Source of the DNA: a bacterium
GTDB taxonomy: Bacteria > Patescibacteriota > JABMPQ01 > JAUVWW01
Direction: 5' to 3'
DNA: 64,000 nt
Assembly: GCA_030603885.1 (NCBI GenBank)
Contig: JAUVWW010000001.1
Location: 135,242 to 199,241 of the forward strand
The notes under the pieces were generated by a model. It worked only from the letters and a program-made list of their open reading frames with translations. It ran no database searches and had not been told where the DNA came from. Numbering within the stretch: the stretch's first letter is position 1; the number at the start of each line of letters is the position of its first letter. The translations under genes and the position numbers were made by a program. This document shows, piece after piece, positions 33,608 to 63,396 of the stretch.

Positions 33608-33611
33608 AATA

Positions 33612-37203: not shown

Positions 37204-38774
37204 AATATCAAAAGGGACTAATACAAAAAAATCTAAGAATACTTCAAGAAAAAGAATGGTATCATCAACGCTTTGATGGTTGCCCTCAGTTTATTTTACT
37301 TATTTCCGAAGCTGAGATGAGACCAGAAAGAAGAAAGTTAAAAGGCGGAAACTTCACTAGCCATATTGTATTTTTTAAGAATGATAGAGTGGATTGGTAT
37401 ATTGACCAAGAAGACATAAAAAGAATTACTAACCTGGTAATTAAAGCTAGTTTAAAAAACCAAAAAATTAGCAAGGATTTAATTAAAAAATGGAAAAGGG
37501 ACGAAAAGATCTTTTATGATTACTGCAGGAGATTGAAGAATATAAATCTAGATATGTTATCTAATGAAAGGTTAAAACATTTATATCATGATTTTGTTGA
37601 AGTCTATTGTAAAACTGTAACAAACAGTTCTGTTATTGATGGATTTGCTTTAGGAACAGATCGGATTATTCAAGAAAAAATAACAAATTTTTTAAAGAGT
37701 AAAAGACTACAAAAATATCAGTATCGCTATTTTACCAGGCTTACTGCTCCTACTAGTCAGTCCTTTATTAATGAAGCGGAAATTTCTCTCCTAAAGGTTG
37801 TTCAGTTAATAAATAGGACTAAAGCTATAAAAAGATTAGTATTACGAGAGAAAAGTATAGATCAGATTTTAAAAGAGTTAAAACAATTTAAGAGAATATA
37901 CCAAGCATTAAAACAACATCAAAAGAGCTATTTCTGGAGTAAAAATAATTACGTGGACGATAATGTGCTTGATCTAAACCATTTTACAAAGGAAATAAAA
38001 GGGATACTTAGAGGAAAGGTTAATATCACAAAAGAAATAAATCGGATCTCAAGCACGCCCATTAAAAATAAGATATCAAAAGATAAATTAATTAAAAGAT
38101 TAAAACCACCAAGAATAATTAGAAATCTAATAACCATTTCAGGTAATTTTACAGATTGGCAAGACGAAAGAAAGAGAAAGACTTATTGGTTAACCCATTG
38201 CTTAAGTCTTATTATTAACGAGATTGCTAAGAGATTCGACTATTCTCTACATGGAATAAAGTATTTAGTTCCGCCAGAGGTAGAAAATCTATTTACAAAA
38301 AAGAGGAAAATTACTCTAGCAGAAACTAGGGCAAGAATTAGAAAATCGCTTTTTTATCAAAAAGGGCAAAATTATGAGATATTGTCTGGAAATAAAGCTG
38401 AGAAACTAAGAAAGGTAATTTTACGGAAAAAGAGAGAGGAGGTTATTCATGACTTTCGAGGTCTTCCAGCTTGCCGAGGAAAAGTAAGAGGTAAGGTCAA
38501 GATAATTAAAAGTGCTAGAGAAGCTGGAAAAGTAGAGAAAGGTAATATCTTGGTGGCTGTGATGACACGTCCAGACTATATAGTAGGAATTAAAAAGGCA
38601 GCTGCCATAGTAACTGATGAAGGTGGAGTTACTTGTCATGCAGCTATAGTAAGTCGAGAACTTAGTATCCCTTGTGTGATAGGTACTAAAATCGCTACCA
38701 AAGTCTTAAAAGATGGAGATTACATAGATGTCAATGCTAGTCACGGAATAATAACTATTATAAAAAGAAAATAA
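37200..38774 (+). CDS. PEP-utilising-enzyme swivel-domain protein, array paralog 4
   Basis: C-terminal DEGGVTCHAAIVSRELSIPCVIGTKIATKVLKDGD; N-domain motifs YFWSKNNY and WQDERK...NEIAKRF. Confidence 0.75.
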   Translation: MKYQKGLIQKNLRILQEKEWYHQRFDGCPQFILLISEAEMRPERRKLKGGNFTSHIVFFKNDRVDWYIDQEDIKRITNLVIKASLKNQKISKDLIKKWKRDEKIFYDYCRRLKNINLDMLSNERLKHLYHDFVEVYCKTVTNSSVIDGFALGTDRIIQEKITNFLKSKRLQKYQYRYFTRLTAPTSQSFINEAEISLLKVVQLINRTKAIKRLVLREKSIDQILKELKQFKRIYQALKQHQKSYFWSKNNYVDDNVLDLNHFTKEIKGILRGKVNITKEINRISSTPIKNKISKDKLIKRLKPPRIIRNLITISGNFTDWQDERKRKTYWLTHCLSLIINEIAKRFDYSLHGIKYLVPPEVENLFTKKRKITLAETRARIRKSLFYQKGQNYEILSGNKAEKLRKVILRKKREEVIHDFRGLPACRGKVRGKVKIIKSAREAGKVEKGNILVAVMTRPDYIVGIKKAAAIVTDEGGVTCHAAIVSRELSIPCVIGTKIATKVLKDGDYIDVNASHGIITIIKRK

Positions 38775-38775
38775 T

Positions 38776-40296
38776 ATGATAGAGCCAAAATATTTTGTTC
38801 AAAGAATGGATGGGGTACTTTTGCTCTCTTTTCTTGCTTCTGAAGCAGAAGTGGTTAATGTTAAAAAAGATTTTGGCATGGGGAAGCCTTTCTGTCCTGG
38901 TGTTAATGCTCACAAGAGGATTAATTATTTTGGTTATGTTTGGAAGGACATACACAAACAAGCAGAATTTATTATTAGAAAAATAAAGAAAAATCCTCGT
39001 TTTTTATCTGATCTTCTTAGAATGTGGAAAGAGAGAGTAAAGAGATTAAGAAATTTTGAAGAAAGAATTTTAAAGACAAGTTTGAAAAATATTTCTGACA
39101 AAGAACTTGTAGCTATTTTTCAGCAGTTAATCAATCTTTATCAAGAAGAATATAGTCCAGCTCTTTTGTGTGATCCTTTTGGTCTCCATACAGAGAAAAT
39201 TATTACTGATAAGCTTAGAAAGATTGTAGAAAGGAGAGAAGAGCCAAGAAAATTTGCTAAATATTTAGAGATTTTAACTACACCTGCAAAAAGATCCTTT
39301 GCTAATGAAGAAGAACTCGATCTTTTAATACTAGCTCAGAAAATAAAGAGGAATAAAAAATTAGCAAGTATCTTGAAGAAAGATGTAAGAAAAGCAAAAA
39401 AAGGGTTAGTTAAACATCCTTACTTAGAAAAACTCATTAGGAAACATATGAAGAAATTTTTCTGGATTGAAAACAGTTATGCCCAGGGAATAAAATTAAA
39501 AGAAGGTTATTTCTTAAAAAAAATTAGAAGGTATTTAAAAGAGAGTATTAATCTCTCAAAGAAAATCAAAGAACTTAAAAATTTGTCTAAAAATTACAGA
39601 AGAAAAAAGAAAACCCTAATTAAAAAGCTTAATTTAGATAAAAAATTTAGAAAATTATTAGAATGGACAGAAGTTTTTGGCTATCTTCACGATGCTAGAA
39701 AAGGAGTGATGATGGAGGCACATTATTATATTACCTTACTGCTCAAAGAAATCGGTAGAAGACTTAGATTAACTCTTCAGGAAATGTACTATACCGATCA
39801 TCACAAGATTGAAGAAATGCTTCTTAAGAAAAAAATCAACAAAAAACTTCTTCGAGAGAGAATAAGAATGTGTACTTACCTAATTTGGCCAACAAAATAT
39901 AGAATTTTAACAGGCAGAAAAGCAGAGTGGTGGCACAAAGAACTTTTAGGAGAAAGAAAAATGGTTATTGGTGAAATCAAAGGAGTTAGTGCTTCAAGTG
40001 GGGTAACGGTAGGTAAAGCCAAAATAGTAAAAGATGTTAAAGATGGATATAAAATAAAGAAAGGAGATATTCTAGTTACTGGTATGACCCGTCCTCACTG
40101 GATGCCTTTTATTAGAAAAGCTAAAGCCCTAGTCACTGATGAAGGAGGAATCACCTGTCATGCGGCCATTGTAGCCAGAGAGCTTGGCATTCCTTGTATC
40201 ATTGCTACAAAAGTGGCTACCAAAATATTGAATGATGGATATTTAGTCGAAGTGAACACTAATCATAATAGAGTGAAGATTCTAAAGAGAGTTTAA
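38776..40296 (+). CDS. PEP-utilising-enzyme swivel-domain protein, array paralog 5
   Basis: C-terminal DEGGITCHAAIVARELGIPCIIATKVATKIL; N-domain homologous over its length to paralog 6. Confidence 0.75.
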   Translation: MIEPKYFVQRMDGVLLLSFLASEAEVVNVKKDFGMGKPFCPGVNAHKRINYFGYVWKDIHKQAEFIIRKIKKNPRFLSDLLRMWKERVKRLRNFEERILKTSLKNISDKELVAIFQQLINLYQEEYSPALLCDPFGLHTEKIITDKLRKIVERREEPRKFAKYLEILTTPAKRSFANEEELDLLILAQKIKRNKKLASILKKDVRKAKKGLVKHPYLEKLIRKHMKKFFWIENSYAQGIKLKEGYFLKKIRRYLKESINLSKKIKELKNLSKNYRRKKKTLIKKLNLDKKFRKLLEWTEVFGYLHDARKGVMMEAHYYITLLLKEIGRRLRLTLQEMYYTDHHKIEEMLLKKKINKKLLRERIRMCTYLIWPTKYRILTGRKAEWWHKELLGERKMVIGEIKGVSASSGVTVGKAKIVKDVKDGYKIKKGDILVTGMTRPHWMPFIRKAKALVTDEGGITCHAAIVARELGIPCIIATKVATKILNDGYLVEVNTNHNRVKILKRV

Positions 40297-40300
40297 AAAT

Positions 40301-41770
40301 ATGGCTAGACAAACAAAATATTTTGACCAAATGAGAGACGGTTTTCCATTTACTGCTATAACTTCTACTAGAGCTCAAATGGTTAATTTAAAAAGTGATA
40401 CAGGAATTTTTAAGCCGGAGTTTATTTGTATATTCAGAAATAAAACTATCCGCTTTATTTATCCTTGGGCCGAATTACACAAAATAGGTAAAGAGATAAA
40501 TGATCTTTTGTTAAAAAACCAAAAGCTTATAGACGAACTTATTCAGACTTGGCAAAGGAAATACCAGCTTTTAAATATATTTTGCCAAGACATAGATAGG
40601 TTAAATTTAAAAAACCTATCAGATAGGGGGCTGGTTAGCCTCTTAGACAACTTGCTGAACATTTTCCAAAATCAATTTAGCATTCCTTGTCTGGTAGAAT
40701 TTTTTAGTTTACATAATGAGCAAGTGATTATTAAAAAACTAATAAAGATATTAAATAAACGAAATGAACTTAAATTATTGCCTGATTATCTTACAACTTT
40801 AATCGTGCCAACCAAGTATTCCTTCAACAACGAAGAGGAACTAGATCTTTTAAAAATAGCTATAATGATAAAGCAAAAAAGAAATAAAAAATTAATTGAG
40901 GAAAGACTAAGACAACATGTAGATAATTACTTTTGGATTGAAAATAACTATGCTCAAGGAATAAAACTTAAAAAAAGCTATTTTGTAAAGAGAATAAATA
41001 GGCTAATTAAAAAGGATAACTTAAGAAAGAAATTAAAAAACATAAAAGACTTGTCTAATAAAAATAAACAAAGAAAAAGAAGATTAATCCGAAAACTAAG
41101 ATTAGATAAAAAGACTATTGAGCTGTTGAACTTAATAGATATTTTTACTTATATTCAGGACAGGCGTAAAGCATCTCAAATGAAAACCTTTTATTATCTT
41201 CAAGAAATGTTAAAAGAAATTGGAAGAAGATTAAAGTTGAGTCAAGAGGAAATGAATTATGCTGTTCATTACGAAATTCCAGAGATGTTACTAAAAAGAA
41301 AAGTAGATGGAAGGATGTTAAAAGAAAGAATGAAATATTGTATCTCTATAGAAACATATAGAAATGATAAATATAAATACAAGATTTTAACAGGGGGGAG
41401 AGCTAAAAAGTTTGAAGAGAAGTTATTTGGAAAAGAAGCTAAGAAAAAGATATCTGACCTACAAGGCATCTGTGCTTCTCAAGGTGTTGTGGTAGGCAAA
41501 GCGAAAATTATTAAGACAATAAAAGATTTCTCCAAGATAAGAATTGGTGACATATTAGTCACTTCTATGACTACTCCCGAGTTCGTTCCTATATTAAAGA
41601 AAGTTAAAGGTATAGTTACTGACGAAGGAGGAATTACTTGCCACGCTGCCATTATTTCTAGAGAATTAGCTATCCCTTGTGTAGTTGGCACTAATATTGC
41701 TACTAAAATTTTAAAAGACGAAGAACTGATAGAAATCCGAGCCCATCATGGAATCGTAAAAAGGATTTAA
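40301..41770 (+). CDS. PEP-utilising-enzyme swivel-domain protein, array paralog 6
   Basis: C-terminal DEGGITCHAAIISRELAIPCVVGTNIATKIL; YFWIENNYAQGIKLKK motif shared with paralog 5. Confidence 0.75.
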   Translation: MARQTKYFDQMRDGFPFTAITSTRAQMVNLKSDTGIFKPEFICIFRNKTIRFIYPWAELHKIGKEINDLLLKNQKLIDELIQTWQRKYQLLNIFCQDIDRLNLKNLSDRGLVSLLDNLLNIFQNQFSIPCLVEFFSLHNEQVIIKKLIKILNKRNELKLLPDYLTTLIVPTKYSFNNEEELDLLKIAIMIKQKRNKKLIEERLRQHVDNYFWIENNYAQGIKLKKSYFVKRINRLIKKDNLRKKLKNIKDLSNKNKQRKRRLIRKLRLDKKTIELLNLIDIFTYIQDRRKASQMKTFYYLQEMLKEIGRRLKLSQEEMNYAVHYEIPEMLLKRKVDGRMLKERMKYCISIETYRNDKYKYKILTGGRAKKFEEKLFGKEAKKKISDLQGICASQGVVVGKAKIIKTIKDFSKIRIGDILVTSMTTPEFVPILKKVKGIVTDEGGITCHAAIISRELAIPCVVGTNIATKILKDEELIEIRAHHGIVKRI

Positions 41771-41872
41771 TTATCTTAAACTTCATACTAAAAAGGGTAT
41801 TCCAGATAATTCCTCAGACATGAGTCGCAAAAGAAGTTTTAAGATGATAAGATATAATTGATAATTAAATAA

Positions 41873-43405
41873 TTGTTAACCAAAAAATATATGCCAGCAG
41901 CAGTAACAAGATCAGGCCCATGGAGAATAAAGCCATCAGGTAAATTACCTATCTTTTTAAGGTTCATGATCAACTCGAGTTTTGATCACAAAATCGCCAA
42001 TAAAGTAGGTTTTAAACATCATATTGTTAATCGGGTTTATCTTAATCATATGATTTACTGGCCAGCTAAAGAATATGATCTATTTGAAAAGGAGATTATT
42101 AATAATGCCAAAAATAAAAAGGGCTGGTTTGAAAACCTCTGCAAAAGAGAGCTTAGAAAATGTGAGAAATTGTATAAATTAGGTCTAGAACTAAAAAGAA
42201 TGGATTGGTCTAAGAAATCTAACCAGTATATGAAAGAGGTATTAACTAGTTTATTAGAGAAATACAGGTATGTTGCTTGCCCGTGGTATACCCAATATCC
42301 TTTAGATGAATATTTTGAAAGTACGATAGAAGAACAACTTGTTAAACATATACCGGCTAGCCACCCAGATTTCAGAAAATTTGTCTTAATTTTTACTGAT
42401 CCAAAAGAAATGACCGAGGTTAGTGAGGAAAAATGGAAGTTAATGAAAATAGCTAAAGAATTTAAGAAAAGAGGGGAGAAATTATCTAAATTATCCAAAT
42501 GGGCAAAAGAGAAAATAGAACGTCATTTAGATAAATTTGCCTATATTAATAGGGGACTGGCTACTAGTAAGCCATACACATTCAAGGACATGGTTGATCG
42601 AATCAGAGAGGCTTGGAAAGATAAAAAAGGATTAAATACACTAATTTATGATAGCTCACCTAAAAAAATAGAAGAAGATTATAAATGGGCTCTAGAAAAG
42701 ATCAAACCAAAACCAAAATTTAAAAAAATTATCACTCAAGCTAGATTACACTCCTACACTAGAAATCGTCGCGTAGAAGCCTTTTTTATGGCAGATTATG
42801 GAGCTAGTTTCATGTATCACGAGATTGCTAAAAGAGCTCACTTTAACCCAAACTGGATTATGGAAGTTTCTGTCCCAGAAATGTTTGGTGCTTTGGAAAA
42901 TAAACCTTTGCCTGATAAAAGGGAAATGCAGAGAAGATTTAAAAACTATGCTATGATTGTTCGCAATGCCAAGACCAAGATGATTGTTGATCCAAAAGAA
43001 ATCAAGAAGTTAGAAAAGAGATATTATGTCAAAGTTAGCAAGGTTAGAGAGATCCATGGAAGAATGGCTTGTCTAGGAGGTATTATTAAAGGTAAAGCAA
43101 GGGTGTGTTTAGATAAAAAAGAGATTGGTAAGGTTAAAAGAGGTGACATTTTGATAGCACAGTTTACTACACCAGACTTTGTACCAGCCATGGAAAAAGC
43201 AGCTGCTATTGTTGCTGATCAAGGTGGTCTGTCATCCCATGCTGCCATTGTTTCCCGAGAGCTGGGCGTACCCTGTGTAATTGCCACAGAAAATGCTACC
43301 CGAGTAATCAAGGATAATGATTTGTTAGAGGTCGATGCTCGAAAAGGAGTAGTTAAAATTTTAAGAAGAGTAAAAAGGAGGAAAAACTATGAGAAAATTT
43401 GTTAA
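41873..43405 (+). CDS. PEP-utilising-enzyme swivel-domain protein, array paralog 7 (most divergent N-domain)
   Basis: C-terminal DQGGLSSHAAIVSRELGVPCVIAT (Ser-Ser-His variant closest to the canonical TSHAAI of PpsA/EI). Confidence 0.7.
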   Translation: MLTKKYMPAAVTRSGPWRIKPSGKLPIFLRFMINSSFDHKIANKVGFKHHIVNRVYLNHMIYWPAKEYDLFEKEIINNAKNKKGWFENLCKRELRKCEKLYKLGLELKRMDWSKKSNQYMKEVLTSLLEKYRYVACPWYTQYPLDEYFESTIEEQLVKHIPASHPDFRKFVLIFTDPKEMTEVSEEKWKLMKIAKEFKKRGEKLSKLSKWAKEKIERHLDKFAYINRGLATSKPYTFKDMVDRIREAWKDKKGLNTLIYDSSPKKIEEDYKWALEKIKPKPKFKKIITQARLHSYTRNRRVEAFFMADYGASFMYHEIAKRAHFNPNWIMEVSVPEMFGALENKPLPDKREMQRRFKNYAMIVRNAKTKMIVDPKEIKKLEKRYYVKVSKVREIHGRMACLGGIIKGKARVCLDKKEIGKVKRGDILIAQFTTPDFVPAMEKAAAIVADQGGLSSHAAIVSRELGVPCVIATENATRVIKDNDLLEVDARKGVVKILRRVKRRKNYEKIC

Positions 43406-46093: not shown

Positions 46094-47146
46094 ATGGAGA
46101 AATTATTCAGTATATCAATAATTGATTTTAGTCTAATAATACTAGAATCATGGGATACTGGTTATTTTAACGAGATGAGGAGGCAACTTAATTTTGGATT
46201 CCCTCGTGTTTTCTTTTTTAGGACAAAGGCTGGTGTAAATATAATGCGTCCCGAGAAAGACCAGAGATCTTTTGAAAAATACATTCTCAGGGAAATTAAA
46301 AGCGATCCCAAATATTTATCTATCCGCTTGAAAAAAATTTTCAGGTATCTTGACGAGCTAAATAAGTCAAAAAAGAAAAAACTCAAAAAGGCAAGTAGTA
46401 AAGACCTATGGAATTGTGCTCAAAAAACATTCAAAATAATATATAAAATTCTACCAATGTATGTTGTGGTCTACTGGTTACTAAGTAGATCATATTTAAG
46501 AGAGTATGTGGATTATAAAGAAATGGAAAAAGCAAGAGTTAGAAGCGAGGGTTATTATGATATAGGAGATAAAATATTTAAAAAGATTTTTAAGAGTGCT
46601 ATAGCTGGCAGAAAGCAACTTTTAAATTATTTTAAAGTGATAAAGTTTGAAGAATTAAAAAAACTTTTGCTTAAAAAACAATTTCCTAAATTATCTGAAT
46701 TACGCAAGAGAAAAATAAATTATTTTCTGTTTAAAAACAATTTTTTATCTGGAAAACTAGAGCTAGATCGAACTCTAAAACGTTATGGTTTCAAATATCA
46801 ATCACCTAAACCAACTCTGGAAGATAGTGTGATCTATGGTCAGACTGCTACAAGAGGTAAGGCTAAAGGACATGTTAAAGTGATTTTAGGTAAAGATGAA
46901 CTCAAAAAAATCCGTAAAGGTGATGTGCTAGTAACTGCAACGACCTCTCCAGATTTTATCCCAGCCATGAAAATTTCAGCTGCTATAGTTACTGACTATG
47001 GTGGAATAGTGTGTCATGCTGCTATTGTTTCTCGAGAACTAAGAGTCCCTTGTATAATAGGCACTAAAATCGCTACCAAAGTTCTAAAAGACGGAGATAG
47101 GGTAGAGGTGGATGCCACAAAAGGAATAGTTAAAAAGATAAAATGA
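46094..47146 (+). CDS. PEP-utilising-enzyme swivel-domain protein, array paralog 8 (short N-domain), adjacent partner of the ATP-grasp gene
   Basis: C-terminal DYGGIVCHAAIVSRELRVPCIIGTKIATKVLKDGDRVEVDATKGIVKKIK; starts 6 nt after the ATP-grasp stop. Confidence 0.75.
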   Translation: MEKLFSISIIDFSLIILESWDTGYFNEMRRQLNFGFPRVFFFRTKAGVNIMRPEKDQRSFEKYILREIKSDPKYLSIRLKKIFRYLDELNKSKKKKLKKASSKDLWNCAQKTFKIIYKILPMYVVVYWLLSRSYLREYVDYKEMEKARVRSEGYYDIGDKIFKKIFKSAIAGRKQLLNYFKVIKFEELKKLLLKKQFPKLSELRKRKINYFLFKNNFLSGKLELDRTLKRYGFKYQSPKPTLEDSVIYGQTATRGKAKGHVKVILGKDELKKIRKGDVLVTATTSPDFIPAMKISAAIVTDYGGIVCHAAIVSRELRVPCIIGTKIATKVLKDGDRVEVDATKGIVKKIK

Positions 47147-51389: not shown

Positions 51390-51851
51390 TTATTTTACTA
51401 TTCGCCACTCGATATCTTCTTCTTTTCCAGCAAATTCTAACCATCTGCCATTTTCATCAATAACATACCATCTTCTCTTAGTCTCTGACCAAACCATGGG
51501 ATCTTCTCGATAAAATGGTTTTTTAACAATTTCTTTGGGTTTTAGCCGATCTAATTCCAGCCATTTTTTAAAAACAGTTTCAATGGCATAATCTAGATTT
51601 CTTGATTTAGCCCACTTGGCCACCTTGTCAATTGCTTGCTTGGCTTTTTTTACTGAGCCTGCTAACTCTAAAAGTTGTTTGGCTGGTCTGGTAAATCTTG
51701 AATAAATTATTTTTTTCTTTTTAGCATCTTTTTTAATCTCATCCAAAGTCAAACCTTTGGTATAAAAATAATGATTAACGATTTCTTGAATAGCAGTCTC
51801 TTTCTCTTCTTTTTCTTTTTTCTTTTTAATTTTTTTAGTTTGTTTCTTCAT
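51390..51851 (-). CDS. hypothetical K-rich protein
   Basis: ORF only. Confidence 0.35.
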   Translation of the reverse strand: MKKQTKKIKKKKEKEEKETAIQEIVNHYFYTKGLTLDEIKKDAKKKKIIYSRFTRPAKQLLELAGSVKKAKQAIDKVAKWAKSRNLDYAIETVFKKWLELDRLKPKEIVKKPFYREDPMVWSETKRRWYVIDENGRWLEFAGKEEDIEWRIVK

Positions 51852-52365
51852 ATTTTTCTGCGGTAAATCTATAGAGTACTAACTGTTCCATTTCTGGATT
51901 TATTCCTCCTTTTTGACAAGCAATAATGATCTGCTTTTCTGGGGTATCGATTCCTTCTAAATCTGGTAATAGAAGTCCGGACCTTCCATCCAAAGTTTTT
52001 ACTAGAACTCCATATTTTTTAGGATCCAGTTTATCTAAACTCTTCACTTGCTTTGGAGGATTCAAAATATAAACTGTGTAAGAAAGATATTTAAGTTTGT
52101 CTTTGGTAACTGGTTCAAAACGATGATCCCGAGTAGCAGCAGATATAGCATTAGAAATTATCTCATCAGCAATATTATCTTTGGTGGGAAGATAGGTTCC
52201 AACACATCCACAAAGATTTTTTTCTTTACCTCGACAGATACACAAAGAAACAAAAGTACCAGCTTTTCTTTCAAAAACTTTGTCTTTAGGTAAATCAATA
52301 ATCTTACCGGTCTTTATATAAGTTTCTACTGCTTTTTTAGCTAGCTTGATATAAGAGTGAGACAT
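51835..52365 (-). CDS. AMMECR1 domain protein (AmmeMemoRadiSam system protein A-like)
   Basis: Conserved CGCVG motif (LCGCVGTYLP) and RDHRF motif of the AMMECR1 family. Confidence 0.7.
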   Translation of the reverse strand: MSHSYIKLAKKAVETYIKTGKIIDLPKDKVFERKAGTFVSLCICRGKEKNLCGCVGTYLPTKDNIADEIISNAISAATRDHRFEPVTKDKLKYLSYTVYILNPPKQVKSLDKLDPKKYGVLVKTLDGRSGLLLPDLEGIDTPEKQIIIACQKGGINPEMEQLVLYRFTAEKYEETN

Positions 52366-52370
52366 AAGTC

Positions 52371-53069
52371 CTAGGCATTAGACCTAAAGAATCTCTTAGA
52401 TAAAACATACCTTGGATTAACCAGGGTTTTCAAAACAGAAACTTTTCTTTTGGCAACTAGCCAGTCTAAAACAGAGTTAATCACTAGATAAAATACCCAA
52501 ATCCCAGCACAAAACAGCGCTCTTTCCATAAAGACAACCGGAATTAAGCCTATCCAAACTGGAGCTGGTAGATTAAAAGCGTAAAGAAAAGCAGTTGATC
52601 CTATAGCATGGGCTGTAAAGGTTGAGCCTAAAGCGTTTAGAACTAGCCTGTCCTTTTTAAAGAAACAGGCTATAGGAATTAACCAATATAATGAAAAATA
52701 CCAGGCTTGTCTTCCTTCAGGGTGAAGCATAAACAAGACTATACAGAGTAGGGGAATGGCTAAGATAATTTTTTTCGATTTTGGTATTCCAAAATAAACA
52801 GCAGCTAACATCATAGGAAAGAATCGAATCAAAGTAGTTATATCAAAGGTTTGATGTTTAATTAACACATTAAACAGTTTTACAAAAAACACGGATACAG
52901 CTGCTGGCCAAGCTCCTAGAAACATTCCCGAGGTTGGACCTAGAAATTCAAAAGGAGTAAAAGATTGCTTTGAGCCAACAATAGAGGAGATAGGAATTTG
53001 GGAAATTGCTAACCCAATGGCTATAAAAATGACAATGAATAAGATTTTCTTTTTGGTGATTTTTTTCAT
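52371..53069 (-). CDS. polytopic membrane protein
   Basis: About 6 hydrophobic helices; no family motif recognised. Confidence 0.35.
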   Translation of the reverse strand: MKKITKKKILFIVIFIAIGLAISQIPISSIVGSKQSFTPFEFLGPTSGMFLGAWPAAVSVFFVKLFNVLIKHQTFDITTLIRFFPMMLAAVYFGIPKSKKIILAIPLLCIVLFMLHPEGRQAWYFSLYWLIPIACFFKKDRLVLNALGSTFTAHAIGSTAFLYAFNLPAPVWIGLIPVVFMERALFCAGIWVFYLVINSVLDWLVAKRKVSVLKTLVNPRYVLSKRFFRSNA

Positions 53070-53097
53070 AGTCTTTTGTTAATTACTAAATTATAAG

Positions 53098-53859
53098 TTA
53101 TTTATTATAATCTTTAAACAAACATTCCTTTTGAGACATAATCAATTGCTTAGTCAAATATCTTGGAGATTTGTTAGATAATTTGATAGGTGTATTTCTA
53201 ATAATCACTATTGGCATTTTTTCTTTAGTCTCACCCATAATTATTGTAGCACTTGATGCCAGATTGTCTGCCACATTTTCTTGGGTAATGCTAATTTTTC
53301 TTCCATAAAGATCTAACTTGCCCCTGGCATCTTGAACTCCTTCAAAACCAGCAATAACTAAAGCCACGCCAAAGGTACCACACCTCAAGGGATGACAATT
53401 TGAATCTCTGACTATTACACCCACATTAACCTTAAATTTATTTTTGATATATTTCTTAATTCTATCCACCCAAACATAAGAATTTTTTGGCCATAAAATA
53501 GCAAATTTTCTTGGAGCATTTGACTGATCTACACCACCGTTAGCAATCAGTACATTATCTTTTAGAGTGAGTATGGCTTTTGGTACGCCACCAATAATCT
53601 TGTCTGCTTCGCCTAAAACAATTTGAGCAAAAGCTGGGCCAATAGAATATTTTTTAGCTAGAACTTTGGCTTTTTTTGTCGGTTTAACCTTTCTTAGATC
53701 TACTATTCTATTTTCAGAAAGAGCTAATATTTTGGAAGCAACCACTATTATATCACTATTTTTAAGCCTTATCTTTTTTCTCGTGATGACATCTGCCAAG
53801 ATCTTTAAAATGTCATCTTTTGGCTTAATTAAAGGAAATTTGAGAGGAATTAGTTCCAT
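53098..53859 (-). CDS. CofE-like (F420-0:gamma-glutamyl ligase family) protein
   Basis: ANGGVDQSN motif corresponds to the CofE ANAGID(E/Q)SN signature; about 250 aa. Confidence 0.55.
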   Translation of the reverse strand: MELIPLKFPLIKPKDDILKILADVITRKKIRLKNSDIIVVASKILALSENRIVDLRKVKPTKKAKVLAKKYSIGPAFAQIVLGEADKIIGGVPKAILTLKDNVLIANGGVDQSNAPRKFAILWPKNSYVWVDRIKKYIKNKFKVNVGVIVRDSNCHPLRCGTFGVALVIAGFEGVQDARGKLDLYGRKISITQENVADNLASSATIIMGETKEKMPIVIIRNTPIKLSNKSPRYLTKQLIMSQKECLFKDYNK

Positions 53860-53861
53860 AT

Positions 53862-54653
53862 TTAAAATTTAAAATTTGCCACCAAGTACCCGACTCCGAA
53901 CGGACCTTCATAAGACAAAATTTCTGGTTTATAGTCTATTTTATCCAAAATTCCTAATAAAACAATTATCGAACGTAGTCCACATTCTCCAGCTTCTTCA
54001 ATTAATCCAGGATCTAGGTTTAGAATACTTTTAACATCGTTCTTTTTAAGTAAATCAATCAATTTTTCGTCAAATTCTTTTCCTCTGGGAGAATATCCTG
54101 CTGGAGCGTCGAAAGTTAGCCGGTGAGATAAATCACCAGAAGCTACTACAGCGATTCTTTCATCAGCATGTTTGATTGCTTTGTGTAACATTTGACCAAA
54201 TTGAAAATGGGTCGGAAGATCAAGTAGAGTAAAACTAATTACCACCAGTTTTAATTTTGGTACTTTTCTGGTGAGATAATATAAGGGTACCAACGTGCCA
54301 TGATCCAAATCTGAATAATCAAGAGCCTGGACTGGCATTTTTTCTTTTTTAGCATCATCTAGAATGTCTTTTATCAATTCTTGGTCTGTCTCAAAACTTA
54401 GCTCTGTTCCAAAGTCTCCAAACTGGCCAAAGTTTCCAGAAAGTATTTTTGGTTTGACTATTCCAAAAGCTTGGGACAGAGTAGGGGCATGAGGAGAAAT
54501 AACTACCACCGTCTCAGGTTTTGTCTGAACAAATTCTTTGTTCAACTTTTCTAAAGCTTTAACCGTACTTGAAATCTTCTCAAGCTCTGGACCTCCAATG
54601 GTTGGAATGAGTAAAGGAGGATGAGGACAAATTGAAGAAAATACTAAAGTCAT
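53862..54653 (-). CDS. MEMO1-like / AmmeMemoRadiSam system protein B-like (class III extradiol dioxygenase fold)
   Basis: About 263 aa with His-containing motifs (ISPHAPT, DLDHGTLVP, SGDLSHRL) typical of the MEMO/LigB-like fold. Confidence 0.55.
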   Translation of the reverse strand: MTLVFSSICPHPPLLIPTIGGPELEKISSTVKALEKLNKEFVQTKPETVVVISPHAPTLSQAFGIVKPKILSGNFGQFGDFGTELSFETDQELIKDILDDAKKEKMPVQALDYSDLDHGTLVPLYYLTRKVPKLKLVVISFTLLDLPTHFQFGQMLHKAIKHADERIAVVASGDLSHRLTFDAPAGYSPRGKEFDEKLIDLLKKNDVKSILNLDPGLIEEAGECGLRSIIVLLGILDKIDYKPEILSYEGPFGVGYLVANFKF

Positions 54654-54659
54654 GGATAT

Positions 54660-55688
54660 CTATTTCTCGGTAAAAAATTTAATTAAATTTTTCTTGAATA
54701 AACGGCTCTTTAACAGTAATGTTAATAATCTAAAGCCCAAATAAGTGACAATTTTACAATTCTTGTAAAGAGATACTATTTTTTCTTCTTGTTCTTTTGC
54801 TTTTAAAATCTCTTGCAATTTTTTGAATTTATAATTAGGGTCAATTATCTTTTTGGCTATTTCTATTCCTGATATCATGGCTGGATGCATACCTTCTCCT
54901 GTGAGACCAGAGGCTAGCCCCGCGGCATCGCCAATTAAAAATTTATTGCCAAATTCTACTCCTTGATAGTCATAATTTATTAAAGCTGTCTGAAGTTTAG
55001 CTTTATCAATATTAAAAGGAAGTTCCTTACACCACCTTTCAAAATTTTTCCTTAGAATATTAATTTTAAACAATCTGGGATCAGCACTCACACCTATAGA
55101 TGTATAATCTTGATGGGGGAATATCCAGGCATAACAGGATCCAAATCTTTTTGGATCTAGGAATATTTGTAATTCATTAAATTTTGCTTTCGAAATATAT
55201 TGGATAGCCAACACTATCTTTTTCGATTTCAAACCAAAAGAATTTCTGACAATAGAATTACTCCCATCAGCTCCCACTAAGTATTTAAAATAAACTCTCT
55301 TGCCATTATTTAATGATACATAATCATCTGAAATACCCACCACTTTTGAATTTAACCAAATATCTGCTCCCGCCTTTTGTGTTAGCCCAAATTGCCATCT
55401 TAAAAGTTTCTTTCGATCACATGTCCAAACAAAAGGTTCATCGGCTTGAATTTTTATTAGATGATCATAAATACGGATAGTAACCGAACAAAATTCTTGT
55501 TCTGTAACCCATTTAGGAATTTTAAGTTCTCTAAAATCTTTTTTAGTCAATCCACCAGCACAAACTTTTTCGCCAATCTCTTTATCCTTTTCTAAAACAA
55601 GAACTTTTTTATTATTTTCTGCTAAAACTTTAGCAGCTGTCAGGCCTGCTGGTCCAGCTCCAACTATAATAATATCGTATTTATCCAT
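54660..55688 (-). CDS. geranylgeranyl reductase family FAD-dependent oxidoreductase
   Basis: N-terminal FAD GxGxxG (IIVGAGPAGLTAA), about 340 aa, GDAAG motif (FLIGDAAGLASGLTGEG) characteristic of GGR/ChlP-like enzymes. Confidence 0.65.
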   Translation of the reverse strand: MDKYDIIIVGAGPAGLTAAKVLAENNKKVLVLEKDKEIGEKVCAGGLTKKDFRELKIPKWVTEQEFCSVTIRIYDHLIKIQADEPFVWTCDRKKLLRWQFGLTQKAGADIWLNSKVVGISDDYVSLNNGKRVYFKYLVGADGSNSIVRNSFGLKSKKIVLAIQYISKAKFNELQIFLDPKRFGSCYAWIFPHQDYTSIGVSADPRLFKINILRKNFERWCKELPFNIDKAKLQTALINYDYQGVEFGNKFLIGDAAGLASGLTGEGMHPAMISGIEIAKKIIDPNYKFKKLQEILKAKEQEEKIVSLYKNCKIVTYLGFRLLTLLLKSRLFKKNLIKFFTEK

Positions 55689-55690
55689 TT

Positions 55691-55753
55691 ATTTTAATAT
55701 CAAATCCAATCTCTCTCCACACTTCGGACATTTTCCGTCTTTATCAAATCTCT
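55691..55753. repeat. relic copy of the 3' end of the radical SAM (amrS) gene, about 63 nt, roughly 5 mismatches to 56431..56493
   Basis: Aligned by eye: atcaaatccaat(c/t)tctctccacactt...acattttccgtctttatcaaatctct present at both loci. Confidence 0.75.
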
Positions 55754-55766
55754 CGATCTCATATCC

Positions 55767-55816
55767 GGAATGAGTAATGGAGGATGAGGACAAATTGAAG
55801 AAAAGACTAAAGTCAT
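55767..55816. repeat. relic copy of the 5' end of the MEMO-like (amrB) gene, 50 nt, 2 mismatches to 54604..54653
   Basis: ggaatgagtaa(a/t)ggaggatgaggacaaattgaagaaaa(t/g)actaaagtcat present at both loci. Confidence 0.8.
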
Positions 55817-55882
55817 ATGAAATCCTTGACAAATTATTTTATATATGCTACACTGTTACAAAATTAAGAAAGGAGGTCAAGA

Positions 55883-56371
55883 ATGAGAAAATGGGAAGAT
55901 TTGTCCTTGCGAAGACGGGTATTTATCATGTCACTCTGCGTAGTAGTATTCTTTACCTTTATCTTTGGATTTGTTTATGTAGTTGAACGCAATGCCAAGC
56001 TTGAAGAAGAGAGACTTAAGAAATTAGCATCAGTTGAGGAGGCACGGATGGGGGCAAAAAAAGGCAGTAGCCGGATGGGTGTAACCGCTCCAGTTTTAGA
56101 TTATGAATTTATTCATCGATGGTGGTGGACTGATAAAGTTATCCTGAAGGCGAATATGCATGGTGACATTATTGAATATCACGAATACTATCTCTTTGAG
56201 ATCACTGTCCATGTCTCTGACACCTTAGAATGTGCCCATCTTGCATTTAAAGAAAAGCTTGAGTGGGAGAGAGCCGGCGGATGGAGTAATAAACCTACTA
56301 AATTAATCTGGAAAAAACAAATGCCACCAAATGGAAAAATCCATTTGTTTATTCCAAGAAAATGCTCCTAA
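55883..56371 (+). CDS. hypothetical protein with one TM helix
   Basis: ORF only; lies between the relic repeats and the radical SAM gene. Confidence 0.3.
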   Translation: MRKWEDLSLRRRVFIMSLCVVVFFTFIFGFVYVVERNAKLEEERLKKLASVEEARMGAKKGSSRMGVTAPVLDYEFIHRWWWTDKVILKANMHGDIIEYHEYYLFEITVHVSDTLECAHLAFKEKLEWERAGGWSNKPTKLIWKKQMPPNGKIHLFIPRKCS

Positions 56372-56428
56372 AAATAGTCGAGATTATGAGACCCTTATTA
56401 CTTCTCAAGAAGTGTAAGGGTCTTCTTT

Positions 56429-57439
56429 TTATTTCAAAATCAAATCCAATTTCTCTCCACACTTAGAACATTTTCCGTCTTTATCAAATCTCTTTATAGA
56501 ATACCCAAGTCTTTCAATAACCAACTCATCACATTTTGGACAATAAGTATTTTCTCCTTCATCACCTGGAAGATTTCCTGTGTAAACATATTTTAATCCC
56601 ATCTTTTTACCAATATCTCGAGCCTTATGTATTGCTTCAACTGGTGTAGCTGGAAGATCCATTAGTTTATAGGCTGGATAAAATTGTGAAATATGCCAAG
56701 GAACTTCTGGTCCCAGCTCATTTTTTATAAAAGAAGCAATATTTTTGTATTCTTCTTCTTTATCATTCAAAGTGGGAATGATCAAAGTAGTCACTTCTAG
56801 CCAAATTCCAGCTTTTTTTATCCTTTTTAAAGTTTCAAGGACTGGTTTGACTCTTGCTCCGCAATTTTCTTGATAAACTTTATCAGTAAATGATTTTAAG
56901 TCGCAATTTACTCCATCTAAATAAGGGGCAACTAGCTCAAAAGCTTCTTTAGTCATAAAACCATTGGTTACCCAAGAGTTTTTTAAACCTTCAGCTTTAG
57001 CTAATTTCATAGTATCCAAAGCATATTCAATAAAGATAGTTGGTTCAGTATAAGTATAAGAAACACCATGACATTTTTGTTCCTTGGCATGTTTGACGAT
57101 CTCTTCGGGTGAAAGATCCTCACCCCAAATCTGACCATTTTCTTTTGGACTTTGAGCAGTCTCCCAATTCTGACAGTTTTTACATCTAAAATTACAGCCG
57201 ACGGTGGCAACGGATAGAGAAGTAGTGCCTGGCAAAAAATGAAAAAGAGGTTTCTTTTCTATAGGGTCAACATGCTCAGCACATGCTTTACCATAGACTA
57301 AGGAATGGAGTTTTTCCGCTTTGTTTTCTCTTACCCCGCAAATTCCACGTTTGTCAGGTAAAATAGTACACCGGTGGCTACAGAGATTACATTGGACTTC
57401 CTTGTTTTTTAATTTTTTATAAAGCAGGGCTTCTTTCAT
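56429..57439 (-). CDS. AmmeMemoRadiSam system radical SAM enzyme (amrS-like)
   Basis: CNFRCKNCQNW radical SAM motif preceded by N-terminal CNLCSHRC..GICGV motif; C-terminal CPKCD...CSKCG zinc-ribbon-like tail. Confidence 0.7.
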   Translation of the reverse strand: MKEALLYKKLKNKEVQCNLCSHRCTILPDKRGICGVRENKAEKLHSLVYGKACAEHVDPIEKKPLFHFLPGTTSLSVATVGCNFRCKNCQNWETAQSPKENGQIWGEDLSPEEIVKHAKEQKCHGVSYTYTEPTIFIEYALDTMKLAKAEGLKNSWVTNGFMTKEAFELVAPYLDGVNCDLKSFTDKVYQENCGARVKPVLETLKRIKKAGIWLEVTTLIIPTLNDKEEEYKNIASFIKNELGPEVPWHISQFYPAYKLMDLPATPVEAIHKARDIGKKMGLKYVYTGNLPGDEGENTYCPKCDELVIERLGYSIKRFDKDGKCSKCGEKLDLILK

Positions 57440-57490
57440 ACTTTCATTATACTGCCTTTGATGGTATAATACAAGACGTAAGTTATTTCC

Positions 57491-58054
57491 ATGAAACATC
57501 GTATTTTCATCGCTATTAACCTTTCAGAGAAAGCAAAATCAGAGGTTCTAGATGCTCAAGAAAGGATGAAAAAATTTGAACTACCTGTAAGATGGATTAC
57601 TAAAGAGGCTCTTCATATAACTTTAGCTTTTCTTGGCTATTTAGAAGATGAACAACTGGAAGAAGTTAAAAAAGTAGTAGAAGAAGCTACTAAGGAAATT
57701 AGCTCCTTTAGACTTTCAACTGGAGAGCTAGATTTCTTTCCCAATATTAAGAGGGCTAGAGTAGTGGTAATCCACATAGAAGGGGATACTGTGGTCTTTC
57801 AAATGAACAAGAATTTAAGAGAAGGCCTAGTCAAACTCCCTTATATTAGACTCGAAAAAAGGGCTTTTAAACCTCATTTAACTTTGGCTAGAGTAAAAAA
57901 GGAAGGGTGGGGAAGAAAAAGTGGAGCCCTAGAGCAGTTAAAAGAGATTAAAATTCATGCTAATTGGGAAGTAAAAAGCATTGATGTTATGGAAAGTAAA
58001 CTTAGCCCAAAAGGAGCAAAGTATAAGGTAGTTAAGAGTTGTGAGTTAAAATGA
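57491..58054 (+). CDS. thpR: RNA 2',3'-cyclic phosphodiesterase (2H family, LigT/ThpR)
   Basis: Two H-x-T/S-x motifs (HITLAF and HLTLAR). Confidence 0.75.
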   Translation: MKHRIFIAINLSEKAKSEVLDAQERMKKFELPVRWITKEALHITLAFLGYLEDEQLEEVKKVVEEATKEISSFRLSTGELDFFPNIKRARVVVIHIEGDTVVFQMNKNLREGLVKLPYIRLEKRAFKPHLTLARVKKEGWGRKSGALEQLKEIKIHANWEVKSIDVMESKLSPKGAKYKVVKSCELK

Positions 58055-62418: not shown

Positions 62419-63396
62419 ATGTCTATGCAAAAATCTAATAAACCCATAATAAAGCATATAACTGGCTTTTTAGAATATATCGAAGTAGAAAAAGGTCTTT
62501 CTCCATTGACTGTGAAAAATTATGATGAATTTTTAAACAGGTTTAGAAAATGGTTAATATCACAAAATTTGACTGAATTGAAGCCTCATCAGCTCTCTCC
62601 AGAACTTATTTGGAAATATCGTCTTTATTTATCTCGTTCCTTGGACAAGATGCAAAAATCTTTAAAAAAAAGCACTCAGGCTTACTACCTGATTGCACTA
62701 AGAGGATTTCTAAATTATTTTACAGAAAAAGATATTCTATCTCTACCAGCAGATAAAATTAAATTACCAAAATTAAGTCTAAGAGGACGTAAAATAAACT
62801 TCTTAACGCTTGAGCAAATAGAAAAACTATTATTAGCTCCTGACATTAGTAACAAAATTGGTCTTAGAGACAAAGCGATATTAGAAACACTGTTCAGTAC
62901 CGGTCTTAGAGTCTCTGAACTTACAGCTCTAAACCGTGATCAAATTAATATGGAAAATATAAAAAAGAACAAATTTAAAGATCTAGAATTAGGGATTGTT
63001 GGTAAAGGTGGTGTCTCCAGAGTAGTTTATTTTTCAGAACGAGCTCTTAGTTGGATAATTAGATACCTTGAAATTAGAAAAGACGAAGACAAAGCCTTGT
63101 TCATTAACTTTAGACTTGATAAAAATAATATATCTAGACGTCTAACTTCTCGTTCTATAGAAAACATTGTCAAAAAATACGTTAAACAAACTGGCTTGCC
63201 TATTACCACCACTCCTCATACAATAAGACACAGCTATGCTACTGACCTCTTAAACCAAGGTGTAGATCTTAGAGCTATTCAAGAATTTCTCGGACACAGG
63301 AATATTGTAACTACGCAACTATATACTCATGTTACTAATAAACGTCTAAGGGATATTCATCGCAAATTTCATGGTGGCAGTAAACTAAAAGAATAA
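62419..63396 (+). CDS. tyrosine site-specific recombinase (XerC/XerD family)
   Basis: Catalytic R (LRVSEL), HTIRHSYAT, LGHRNIVTTQLYTHV (R-H-R-Y pattern). Confidence 0.75.
   Translation: MSMQKSNKPIIKHITGFLEYIEVEKGLSPLTVKNYDEFLNRFRKWLISQNLTELKPHQLSPELIWKYRLYLSRSLDKMQKSLKKSTQAYYLIALRGFLNYFTEKDILSLPADKIKLPKLSLRGRKINFLTLEQIEKLLLAPDISNKIGLRDKAILETLFSTGLRVSELTALNRDQINMENIKKNKFKDLELGIVGKGGVSRVVYFSERALSWIIRYLEIRKDEDKALFINFRLDKNNISRRLTSRSIENIVKKYVKQTGLPITTTPHTIRHSYATDLLNQGVDLRAIQEFLGHRNIVTTQLYTHVTNKRLRDIHRKFHGGSKLKE

What the first reader, a model, noticed from the sequence alone, without database searches (positions are those of the whole stretch)
55691..55816. Back-to-back relic copies of the radical SAM 3' end and the MEMO-like 5' end mark a rearrangement inside the AmmeMemoRadiSam gene set
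A 63-nt segment at 55691-55753 is about 92 percent identical to the 3' coding end of the radical SAM gene (56431-56493). A 50-nt segment at 55767-55816 is 96 percent identical to the 5' coding start of the MEMO-like gene (54604-54653). The two relics abut each other. The real MEMO-like gene, the geranylgeranyl-reductase-like gene, the two relics, a 162-aa hypothetical ORF and the real radical SAM gene now lie in that order. The relic order (radical SAM end, then MEMO start) is the circular permutation of a simple radical SAM to MEMO junction. This points to a tandem duplication of a segment bounded inside those two genes, or a circular intermediate, followed by divergence. It implies that amrS and amrB were once directly adjacent and that the GGR-like gene and/or the 162-aa ORF are later insertions.
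Basis: seen in the sequence. Interest (0 to 1): 0.65.

Follow-up and report, generated by a model that had tools for sequence, protein, structure and literature searches.

The report
Recombination scar between two gene cassettes
Two short gene fragments lying back to back are a real and recent recombination scar, left when two alternative gene cassettes that related bacteria carry at the same chromosomal site ended up side by side; the process is ordinary, but an intermediate stage of it has rarely been caught so cleanly.

Summary
55688-55766 copies the last 79 nt of the radical SAM gene amrS (86%; 92% over 66 nt). 55767-55816 copies the first 50 nt of the LigB/Memo-like gene (96%). Nothing else in the window matches either piece.

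Relatives explain the structure. The site between amrS and the Memo-like gene is a hypervariable slot:
- L164 carries amrS | ORF162 homologue (reverse) | Memo.
- L162/L163 carry amrS | GGR | Memo.
- L161 carries GGR plus small ORFs.
- L165 (94.5% nt identical flanks) carries two lycopene-cyclase-domain ORFs.
- L166 carries nothing.

The window holds the ORF162 and GGR cassettes in tandem. They are joined where Memo nt 50 meets amrS nt -79.

The relics are not decayed copies of the window's own genes. At 6 of 7 informative sites they carry L164-like states, while the real copies are L165-like. Their three private changes are all synonymous, and there are no indels or stops.

Best model: a ~740-nt ORF162-bearing fragment from a relative circularised and integrated by one crossover in the 79-nt amrS homology. 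This is a natural merodiploid.

The claims that amrS and amrB were adjacent, that GGR is a later insertion, and that the copies diverged afterwards do not hold.

The parts
56429..57499 (-). amrS, AmmeMemoRadiSam radical SAM enzyme (intact; annotated start may be 57439, giving 336 aa)
   Evidence: TIGR04337 359 bits (cutoff 220); PF04055; 94-95% aa identical to L165 amrS
56428..56506 (-). Real copy of the amrS 3' end (last 26 codons with stop, plus 1 nt): the right-hand direct repeat
56388..56434 (+). Intrinsic terminator of ORF162: hairpin followed by UUCUUUUUAUU. The U-tract overlaps the amrS stop codon on the other strand
   Evidence: MFE -22.4 kcal/mol, z -4.95. L164 has a hairpin at the same position, z -3.46
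55883..56371 (+). ORF162: orphan protein with a hydrophobic, probably membrane-spanning N-terminal stretch, the payload of one cassette
   Evidence: No Pfam or NCBIfam hit. Only one clear homologue, P0123, in 1.84e9 representatives (E 9e-29; a second hit, P0124, is marginal at E 5e-4); 44% aa by BLASTP. GC3 0.377 is the highest of 60 ORFs (mean 0.263, sd 0.037). The hydrophobic stretch was read from the translation, not predicted with a tool
55826..55876 (+). ORF162 promoter (TTGACA-17-TACACT, TG-extended; 55826-55854) and Shine-Dalgarno AAGGAGG (55870-55876)
   Evidence: sequence; region 87% identical to L164
55823..55861 (-). Promoter-like site (TTGTAA-17-AATAAT; 55861-55833) and AAGGA Shine-Dalgarno (55827-55823) 6 nt before the relic Memo ATG. 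In L164 the homologous sequence precedes the intact Memo gene
   Evidence: function inferred
55767..55816 (-). Relic of the Memo/LigB-like gene 5' start (ATG plus 16 codons plus 2 nt), collinear with the ORF162 promoter region as in L164
   Evidence: 96% to 54604-54653. Both differences are synonymous. L164 139-229 matches 55767-55857 at 87%
55688..55766 (-). Relic of the amrS 3' end (26 codons, open, TAA at 55689-55691). Its stop abuts the GGR ATG. This is the left-hand direct repeat
   Evidence: Four-way comparison: carries the L164-like GAGATCGAG block. Blunt junction at 55766|55767 with no microhomology
55700..55816 (-). 38-codon out-of-frame fusion ORF (MTLVFSSICPHPPLLIPDMRSRDLIKTENVRSVERDWI*) ending 12 nt before the GGR ATG. 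Possible leader ORF
   Evidence: translation; function is inference only
54660..55688 (-). GGR-family flavoprotein, the payload of the other cassette
   Evidence: TIGR02032 150 bits (cutoff 158.8, just below). Closest homologues at 57-59% sit between amrS and Memo. GC3 0.225
53862..54653 (-). Intact LigB/Memo-like gene (amrB position). 54604-54653 is the real copy of the 50-nt repeat
   Evidence: PF02900 163 bits, PF01875 37 bits; TIGR04336 36.5 bits (cutoff 26)
51835..53859 (-). Rest of the operon: CofE-like gamma-glutamyl ligase (53098-53859), 232-aa membrane protein (52371-53069), amrA/AMMECR1 (51835-52365)

Best explanation
The two relics are a non-coding scar of one recent recombination event that put two alternative cassettes of one hypervariable chromosomal slot side by side. 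In this group of Patescibacteria-like genomes, the space between the amrS stop codon and the ATG of the LigB/Memo-like gene holds different genes in different lineages.

Favoured model:
1. The window's lineage carried amrS|GGR|Memo.
2. A short DNA fragment of about 740 nt came from a relative carrying amrS|ORF162(reverse)|Memo. It ran from 79 nt inside the end of amrS, through ORF162 with its own promoter and terminator, to 50 nt inside Memo.
3. Its ends were joined, which created the blunt Memo-nt-50 | amrS-nt-minus-79 junction.
4. The circle integrated by a single homologous crossover in the 79-nt amrS homology (Campbell-type).

The product is a natural merodiploid: amrS | ORF162 | Memo-stub + amrS-stub | GGR | Memo.

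Shown: the repeats, the junction, both parental arrangements in relatives, the allelic (not decayed) nature of the relics, and the atypical composition of ORF162.

Inferred: the circular intermediate, the direction (ORF162 incoming), and the mode of uptake.

A likely side effect, also inferred: the Memo stub brings the promoter-like site, Shine-Dalgarno and ATG that precede Memo in the L164-type arrangement. These now sit in front of GGR, which has no Shine-Dalgarno of its own.
For: 1. The repeats are real: E 3e-22 and 2e-18 within the window.

2. The ORF162 parental arrangement exists. L164 is collinear with the window from amrS through the terminator, the ORF162 homologue and the promoter into Memo. 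It continues into Memo for 188 nt with no relic and no GGR.

3. The GGR parental arrangement exists. L162/L163 have the amrS stop 8 nt before the GGR ATG and GGR 3 nt before Memo. L161 has GGR->Memo. In the window the relic TAA abuts the GGR ATG.

4. The slot is hypervariable with clean gene-border breakpoints. L165 is 94.5% identical over 3.6 kb up to 1 nt past the amrS stop. Identity resumes 1 nt before the Memo ATG, and the slot holds two lycopene-cyclase-domain ORFs instead. Other contents appear in L024, L032, L166, L169 and L170.

5. The relics are a different allele, not a decayed copy. Differences over the 78 nt of the amrS end are: real-L165 5, relic-L165 8, real-relic 11, relic-L164 13, real-L164 18. 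At 6 of 7 informative sites the relic matches L164 and the real copy matches L165. This includes the block GAGATCGAG vs TCTATAAAG and, in Memo, GTC vs GTA.

6. 8 of 13 relic/real differences are at third codon positions (P = 0.035). Six codons differ synonymously, and there are no indels or stops. The relic's three private changes (ATC, ATA, CCA) are all synonymous. By contrast, window and L165 differ at 16% of 4-fold sites. About 10 private changes would be expected in 128 neutral nt if the scar predated that split.

7. Direction. ORF162 GC3 is 0.377 (z about +3.1, the highest of 60 ORFs), close to the L164 genes (0.32-0.37). GGR GC3 is 0.225, typical of the window.

8. The mechanism is documented elsewhere. 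Single crossovers of circularised fragments gave 109-950 bp duplications of the homologous segment in E. coli (PMC3240628). Displacement by recombination that leaves orphan gene ends is described for T6SS/Rhs loci (PMC5361080).
Against: - No donor or recipient genome close enough to be the actual parent was found. ORF162 is only 44-50% identical to its L164 homologue, and the nearest GGR is 59%.
- The direction rests on 7 informative sites and on GC3 of one short gene.
- L164 amrS is only 67% aa identical to the window's, so 'L164-like' states could partly be retained ancestral states.
- A crossover confined to the last ~25 nt of a 79-nt homology is needed to fit all 7 sites.
- Read-level support for the junction could not be examined.
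Confidence: 0.7

Rival explanations
1. Same kind of event, opposite direction. The window's lineage carried amrS|ORF162|Memo. A ~1163-nt fragment (amrS nt -79 .. GGR .. Memo nt +50) from an amrS|GGR|Memo relative circularised and integrated by a crossover in the 50-nt Memo homology. An equivalent route is a single unequal, illegitimate crossover between the two haplotypes.
For: - It gives exactly the same product. The start-to-start spacing of the Memo repeats is 1163 nt.
- The real amrS end is L165-like, as expected if amrS is native in either model.
- ORF162 shares its position and borders with L164, so it could be old at this site.
Against: - ORF162 is the compositional outlier, and GGR is typical of the genome.
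- The closest relative, L165, lacks ORF162.
- This model does not predict that the Memo stub (GTC) and the amrS stub are both L164-like.
- 50 nt is a very short crossover target.
Confidence: 0.2
2. In-situ tandem duplication of [amrS 3' end - GGR - Memo 5' start] in an amrS|GGR|Memo ancestor. The first GGR copy was later replaced by ORF162 and the relics decayed neutrally.
For: The permuted junction is what a tandem duplication produces. GGR between amrS and Memo is ancestral in the wider clade.
Against: - There is no trace of a second GGR copy in 55817-56427, although the flanking relics are still 86-96% identical.
- Replacement would have had to hit both gene borders to within a nucleotide or so.
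- The relic carries five L164-like nucleotides in one block that neither the window's amrS nor L165 has.
- The relic branch is shorter than the real-copy branch: from the three-way distances among real, relic and L164, about 3 changes vs 8.
- All relic private changes are synonymous.
- L164 has ORF162 at the same borders with no relics.
Confidence: 0.05
3. Assembly or amplification artefact: a chimeric join of two co-occurring strains (one with ORF162, one with GGR) in a metagenome-assembled contig.
For: - The window comes from a single 199-kb NCBI contig with no second sample.
- The slot is polymorphic among close relatives, so mixed strains are plausible.
- Reads could not be checked.
Against: - The junction joins Memo nt 50 to amrS nt -79 with no shared k-mer or microhomology, so a graph mis-traversal cannot create it.
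- The repeats differ (86-96%), so they are not collapsed or duplicated reads.
- The relic alleles are coherent coding sequence.
- Only a chimeric template, for example from whole-genome amplification, could produce it.
Confidence: 0.05

Closest known systems
Campbell-type single-crossover integration (merodiploid, the first-crossover intermediate of allelic exchange); natural analogue in E. coli conjugation experiments (PMC3240628)
   Same: - An insert flanked by direct repeats of the homologous segment (79 nt of amrS).
- The second 'arm' (50 nt of Memo) is also duplicated. A second crossover in either arm would cleanly yield one or the other single-cassette allele, and both alleles exist in relatives.
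   Different: - No vector or replicon is involved, and the arms are very short (79 and 50 nt).
- The circle would have formed by blunt end-joining of a small chromosomal fragment.
- The circular molecule itself is inferred, not observed.
Homology-facilitated illegitimate recombination and 'sequential displacement' at T6SS effector-immunity and Rhs loci (PMC5361080 and the references in it to de Vries & Wackernagel 2002 and Prudhomme et al. 2002)
   Same: - Non-homologous cassettes are exchanged between conserved flanking genes.
- Rare events leave orphaned gene ends next to the new cassette.
- Close relatives mostly show clean replacements.
   Different: - Here both an orphan 3' end and an orphan 5' start are left, abutting each other.
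- Nothing was displaced or deleted.
- No microhomology is seen at the illegitimate junction.
- The cassettes are metabolic or unknown genes, not toxin-immunity pairs.
Flexible genomic islets / replacement hot spots between conserved core genes
   Same: The same slot holds unrelated genes in genomes whose flanks are 94.5% identical. The breakpoints lie at gene borders.
   Different: The slot lies inside a conserved functional gene set (AmmeMemoRadiSam). Its cassettes are 0-4 small genes. No mobile-element genes are associated.

Membership tests
AmmeMemoRadiSam gene set (context of the finding) | Radical SAM enzyme matching TIGR04337 above its cutoff | tested here: met
   359.1 bits vs cutoff 220
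AmmeMemoRadiSam gene set (context of the finding) | AMMECR1-type protein A matching TIGR04335 above its cutoff | tested here: met
   111.5 bits vs cutoff 99; PF01871 137 bits
AmmeMemoRadiSam gene set (context of the finding) | Memo-type protein B matching TIGR04336 above its cutoff | tested here: met
   36.5 bits vs cutoff 26. The protein scores far better as LigB (PF02900, 163 bits) than as Memo (PF01875, 37 bits), so it is a LigB-like member of the superfamily in the amrB position
Campbell-type integration scar (merodiploid) | Direct repeats of the crossover homology flank the inserted DNA | tested here: met
   79-nt repeats at 55688-55766 and 56428-56506 flank ORF162 plus the Memo stub; spacing 740 nt
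Campbell-type integration scar (merodiploid) | Insert plus one repeat is collinear with a contiguous segment of a donor-type allele, and the novel junction equals the two ends of that segment | tested here: met
   L164 is collinear with window 55767-56701. The junction is Memo nt 50 | amrS nt -79
Campbell-type integration scar (merodiploid) | Recipient-type allele without the insert exists | tested here: met
   amrS|GGR|Memo is found in L162/L163, but only in distant relatives (56-61% aa amrS)
Campbell-type integration scar (merodiploid) | A circular intermediate exists | not testable with these tools
   Needs outward-facing PCR or reads from the source population
Homology-facilitated illegitimate recombination | Short microhomology (about 3-10 nt) at the illegitimate junction | tested here: not met
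   Neither side of 55766|55767 shares bases with the other parent's continuation (sequences)
Tandem duplication | The interior of the duplicated unit is present twice, or as a recognisable remnant | tested here: not met
   No GGR-like sequence in 55817-56427 by the repeat finder or word-7 blastn
Site-specific mobile cassette (integron, integrative element) | A dedicated integrase adjacent to the cassette, and short conserved att/attC cores at the cassette ends | tested here: not met
   No recombinase lies within the locus. The only tyrosine recombinase (62419-63396) is XerC/D-like and 5 kb away, beyond genes that flank amrS in other relatives too. The repeats are coding gene ends, not att cores

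The most novel reading that the evidence does not exclude
The composite locus is a naturally captured first-crossover (merodiploid) intermediate of cassette replacement in a streamlined Patescibacteria-type genome. It would show that these organisms swap genes at a hot spot inside the AmmeMemoRadiSam operon using homology arms of only 50-80 nt. The state can resolve either way by deletion between the 79-nt or the 50-nt repeats. In addition, the Memo stub (promoter-like site, Shine-Dalgarno, ATG, 38-codon fusion ORF ending 12 nt before GGR) may have been co-opted as the expression leader of the GGR-Memo-CofE-amrA operon after it was cut off from amrS.
Probability: 0.3. Interest if true: 0.45.

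Novelty: new member of a known kind. Interest (0 to 1): 0.3.

Why it matters
On its own this is a small pseudogene scar produced by known recombination processes. Its value is as evidence.
- It dates and orients a very recent gene gain in an uncultivated, reduced genome.
- It shows that both alternative alleles of a slot can coexist transiently in one chromosome.
- It points to a recombination hot spot inside the AmmeMemoRadiSam gene set, whose function is still unknown.
- The slot repeatedly holds isoprenoid-type genes (GGR-family reductase, lycopene-cyclase-domain proteins). This is a usable hint about what the system acts on.
- For annotation, the two fragments should be flagged as gene remnants, not as small ORFs.

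Tried and rejected
- Exact-sequence look-ups of ORF162 gave no contig. The word-indexed search found only the protein itself. Only the exhaustive phmmer search found the homologue.
- Genome and metagenome contig scans with amrS returned only relatives at or below 63% identity. Most lacked a neighbouring Memo gene. The useful relatives came from protein look-ups.
- The 158-aa gene upstream of GGR in L163 is only a truncated amrS.
- L165's 58-nt spacer contains ATGGATAAA, which resembles the GGR start. It is not significant: 650 of 2000 shuffles score as well.
- Relic-like copies of amrS ends or Memo starts were sought in the slots of six other loci. None was convincing except a marginal 16-nt match in L161.
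- Rfam found nothing in the region.
- I looked for a reciprocal-mosaic crossover point inside the 79-nt repeat. All 7 informative sites fit a crossover between codons 19 and 24, but this rests on one site, so I do not claim it.
- Literature on the AmmeMemoRadiSam system is essentially limited to annotations.

Full report
**Observation**

The region was read directly and its ORFs listed. On the minus strand the order is:
- amrS (57499-56429)
- a 162-aa ORF on the opposite strand (55883-56371)
- the two relics
- a GGR-family flavoprotein gene (55688-54660)
- a LigB/Memo-like gene (54653-53862)
- a CofE-like ligase gene
- a gene for a 232-aa membrane protein
- amrA/AMMECR1 (52365-51835)

Family assignments come from Pfam and NCBIfam. 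TIGR04337, TIGR04335 and TIGR04336 are all above their cutoffs.

The repeat finder gives 55688-55766 = 56428-56506 (79 nt, 86%) and 55767-55816 = 54604-54653 (50 nt, 96%). blastn against the whole window gives E 3e-22 and 2e-18, with no other copies.

Two details matter later. Homology ends exactly at gene borders, at the Memo ATG and 1 nt past the amrS stop. The relic's TAA also abuts the GGR ATG.

**ORF162 is a self-contained gene**

It has these signals:
- a TG-extended TTGACA-17-TACACT promoter
- an AAGGAGG Shine-Dalgarno
- a strong terminator hairpin followed by a U-tract (-22.4 kcal/mol, z -4.95)

It has no family assignment. In an exhaustive search of 1.84 billion representatives it has one clear homologue, P0123 (E 9e-29), and one marginal hit, P0124 (E 5e-4). 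BLASTP identity to P0123 is 44%. Its GC3 of 0.377 is the highest of 60 ORFs in the window (mean 0.263, sd 0.037). GGR's GC3 is 0.225.

**Relatives**

The slot between amrS and Memo differs from one relative to the next.

| Locus | Similarity to the window | Content between amrS and Memo |
|---|---|---|
| L162/L163 | GGR 59% aa | GGR only (amrS stop 8 nt before GGR ATG; GGR 3 nt before Memo) |
| L161 | GGR 57% aa | CmpB-like ORF, two lycopene-cyclase-domain ORFs, then GGR |
| L164 (contig of P0123) | amrS 67% aa; Memo N-terminus 89% aa | ORF162 homologue on the reverse strand, with promoter and terminator |
| L165 | 94.5% nt over 3.6 kb (window 60037-56428); amrS 94% aa | two lycopene-cyclase-domain ORFs of ~100 aa |
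| L166/L167 | amrS 68-69% aa | nothing (24 nt) |
| L024 | amrS 57% aa | 70-aa reverse ORF |
| L032 | amrS 61% aa | DJ-1/PfpI gene |
| L169 | amrS 66% aa | 57-aa reverse ORF, ClpB-like gene, 449-aa ORF |
| L170 | amrS 68% aa | 421-aa FAD protein and further genes |

In L164 the intact Memo gene continues for at least 188 nt after the ORF162 cassette. There are no relics and no GGR. In L165, identity with the window stops 1 nt past the amrS stop and resumes 1 nt before the Memo ATG.

So the slot is a replacement hot spot with breakpoints at gene borders. Both arrangements needed to make the window's structure exist in nature.

**What the relics are**

The window equals the L164-type arrangement up to Memo nt 50, joined to the L162-type arrangement from amrS nt -79 onward. 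Three points argue against in-situ duplication followed by decay.

1. There is no remnant of a second GGR copy between amrS and the relics.

2. The four-way comparison shows a different allele. Differences over the 78 nt of the amrS end are:

| Pair | Differences |
|---|---|
| real - L165 | 5 |
| relic - L165 | 8 |
| real - relic | 11 |
| relic - L164 | 13 |
| real - L164 | 18 |

At 6 of 7 informative sites the relic has the L164 state and the real copy has the L165 state. This includes a block of four such sites within nine bases, at which the relic and L164 agree at eight of nine (relic GAGATCGAG, L164 GAGATTGAA, against TCTATAAAG in the real copy and L165), and GTC vs GTA in the Memo piece. 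A copy of the window's own gene could not have reacquired those states by chance.

3. The differences look allelic rather than neutral.
 - 8 of 13 fall on third codon positions (P = 0.035).
 - Six codons differ synonymously.
 - The amrS frame is open with no indel.
 - The relic's three private changes are all synonymous.
 - Window and L165 differ at 16% of 4-fold sites.

 A scar older than that split should carry about ten private changes in 128 nt. It carries at most three. The event is therefore recent, and the relic sequences come from another lineage.

**Mechanism and direction**

The product is what a single crossover of a circularised fragment gives, or equivalently one unequal exchange between the two haplotypes. 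The blunt junction, with no microhomology, would be the ligated ends of the fragment.

Two fragments fit:
- a 740-nt ORF162-bearing one integrating through the 79-nt amrS homology
- a 1163-nt GGR-bearing one integrating through the 50-nt Memo homology

I favour the first, for four reasons:
- ORF162 is compositionally foreign and resembles the GC3 of L164 genes (0.32-0.37), while GGR is native-like.
- GGR->Memo is the conserved pair in the wider clade.
- The closest relative, L165, lacks ORF162.
- This model predicts that both stubs are donor-like (L164-like) while both full genes are L165-like, which is what one search shows.

This rests on few sites, so the direction is held at roughly 3:1.

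Experimental precedents exist. Circularised fragments integrating by single crossover gave 109-950 bp duplications of the homologous segment in E. coli (PMC3240628). Recombination that leaves orphaned gene ends next to a new cassette is described at T6SS and Rhs loci (PMC5361080).

**Consequences (inferred)**

The stub carries the promoter-like site, the AAGGA Shine-Dalgarno and the ATG that precede Memo in the L164 arrangement. Translation from that ATG gives a 38-codon out-of-frame peptide that ends 12 nt before the GGR ATG. GGR lacks its own Shine-Dalgarno here and in L161 and L162. The scar may therefore now serve as the leader of the GGR-Memo-CofE-amrA transcript.

The two repeat pairs also make the locus resolvable by deletion to either single-cassette allele.

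**Artefact check**

A graph mis-join cannot create a junction between sequences that share no k-mer. The copies are also not identical. Only a chimeric template could produce this, and that needs read-level data I do not have. No integrase is associated with the locus. The only tyrosine recombinase in the window is XerC/D-like, lies 5 kb away, and sits beyond genes that flank amrS in other relatives as well.

**Verdict**

This is a real, recent recombination scar of a known kind. Its evolutionary reading is largely wrong: it held that amrS and amrB were adjacent, that GGR was inserted later, and that the copies diverged after a duplication. Interest is modest. The more useful by-products are the hypervariable slot inside the AmmeMemoRadiSam operon and its recurrent isoprenoid-type cargo.

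Noticed in passing
window 32189-43405 (+), plus 46094-47146: Seven tandem paralogous ORFs of 472-524 aa. Each matches only the C-terminal PEP-utilising-enzyme mobile domain (PF00391). They are interrupted by one 213-aa ORF. An eighth, 350-aa copy lies at 46094-47146. The array includes the lowest-GC ORFs in the window (26-35%).
   Followed up: no
L161 6931-9044; L165 3622-4226; L162 1818-2861; L170 1158-2423; window 54660-55688: In Patescibacteria-type relatives the slot between amrS and the Memo-like gene repeatedly holds isoprenoid-type genes. These are GGR-family flavoproteins and pairs of ~100-aa lycopene-cyclase-domain membrane proteins. This is a possible hint about the substrate of the uncharacterised AmmeMemoRadiSam system.
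   Followed up: partly
L161 7969-7984 vs 6905-6920: A 16-nt (15/16) copy of L161's own amrS 3' end lies about 17 nt upstream of its GGR ATG, after three inserted small ORFs. Between 7 of 300 and 8 of 2000 shuffles reach the score. It may be an older, decayed scar of the same type, or chance.
   Followed up: partly
L164 whole contig vs window 54466-57300: L164 is mosaic relative to the window. Its amrS is only 67% aa (72-77% nt) identical, but its Memo N-terminus is 89% aa (86% nt) and the ORF162 promoter region 87% nt identical. This suggests further recombination breakpoints in or near the slot.
   Followed up: partly
window 53098-53859 and 52371-53069: A CofE-like F420-0:gamma-glutamyl ligase family gene and a gene for a 232-aa multi-pass membrane protein sit between the Memo-like gene and amrA. 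At the same place L161 has CYTH, a second radical SAM gene and a 104-aa ORF, and L162 has an AP-endonuclease-2 fold protein and a radical SAM gene. The second intergenic position of the gene set is therefore also variable.
   Followed up: no
window 62419-63396 (+): XerC/D-like tyrosine recombinase (TIGR02225 223 bits and TIGR02224 218 bits, both below their equivalog cutoffs) downstream of GluRS and an M23 peptidase. There is no sign that it is linked to the scar.
   Followed up: partly
window 25609-25681 (+): A single tRNA gene is the only Rfam match in the window at gathering threshold.
   Followed up: no
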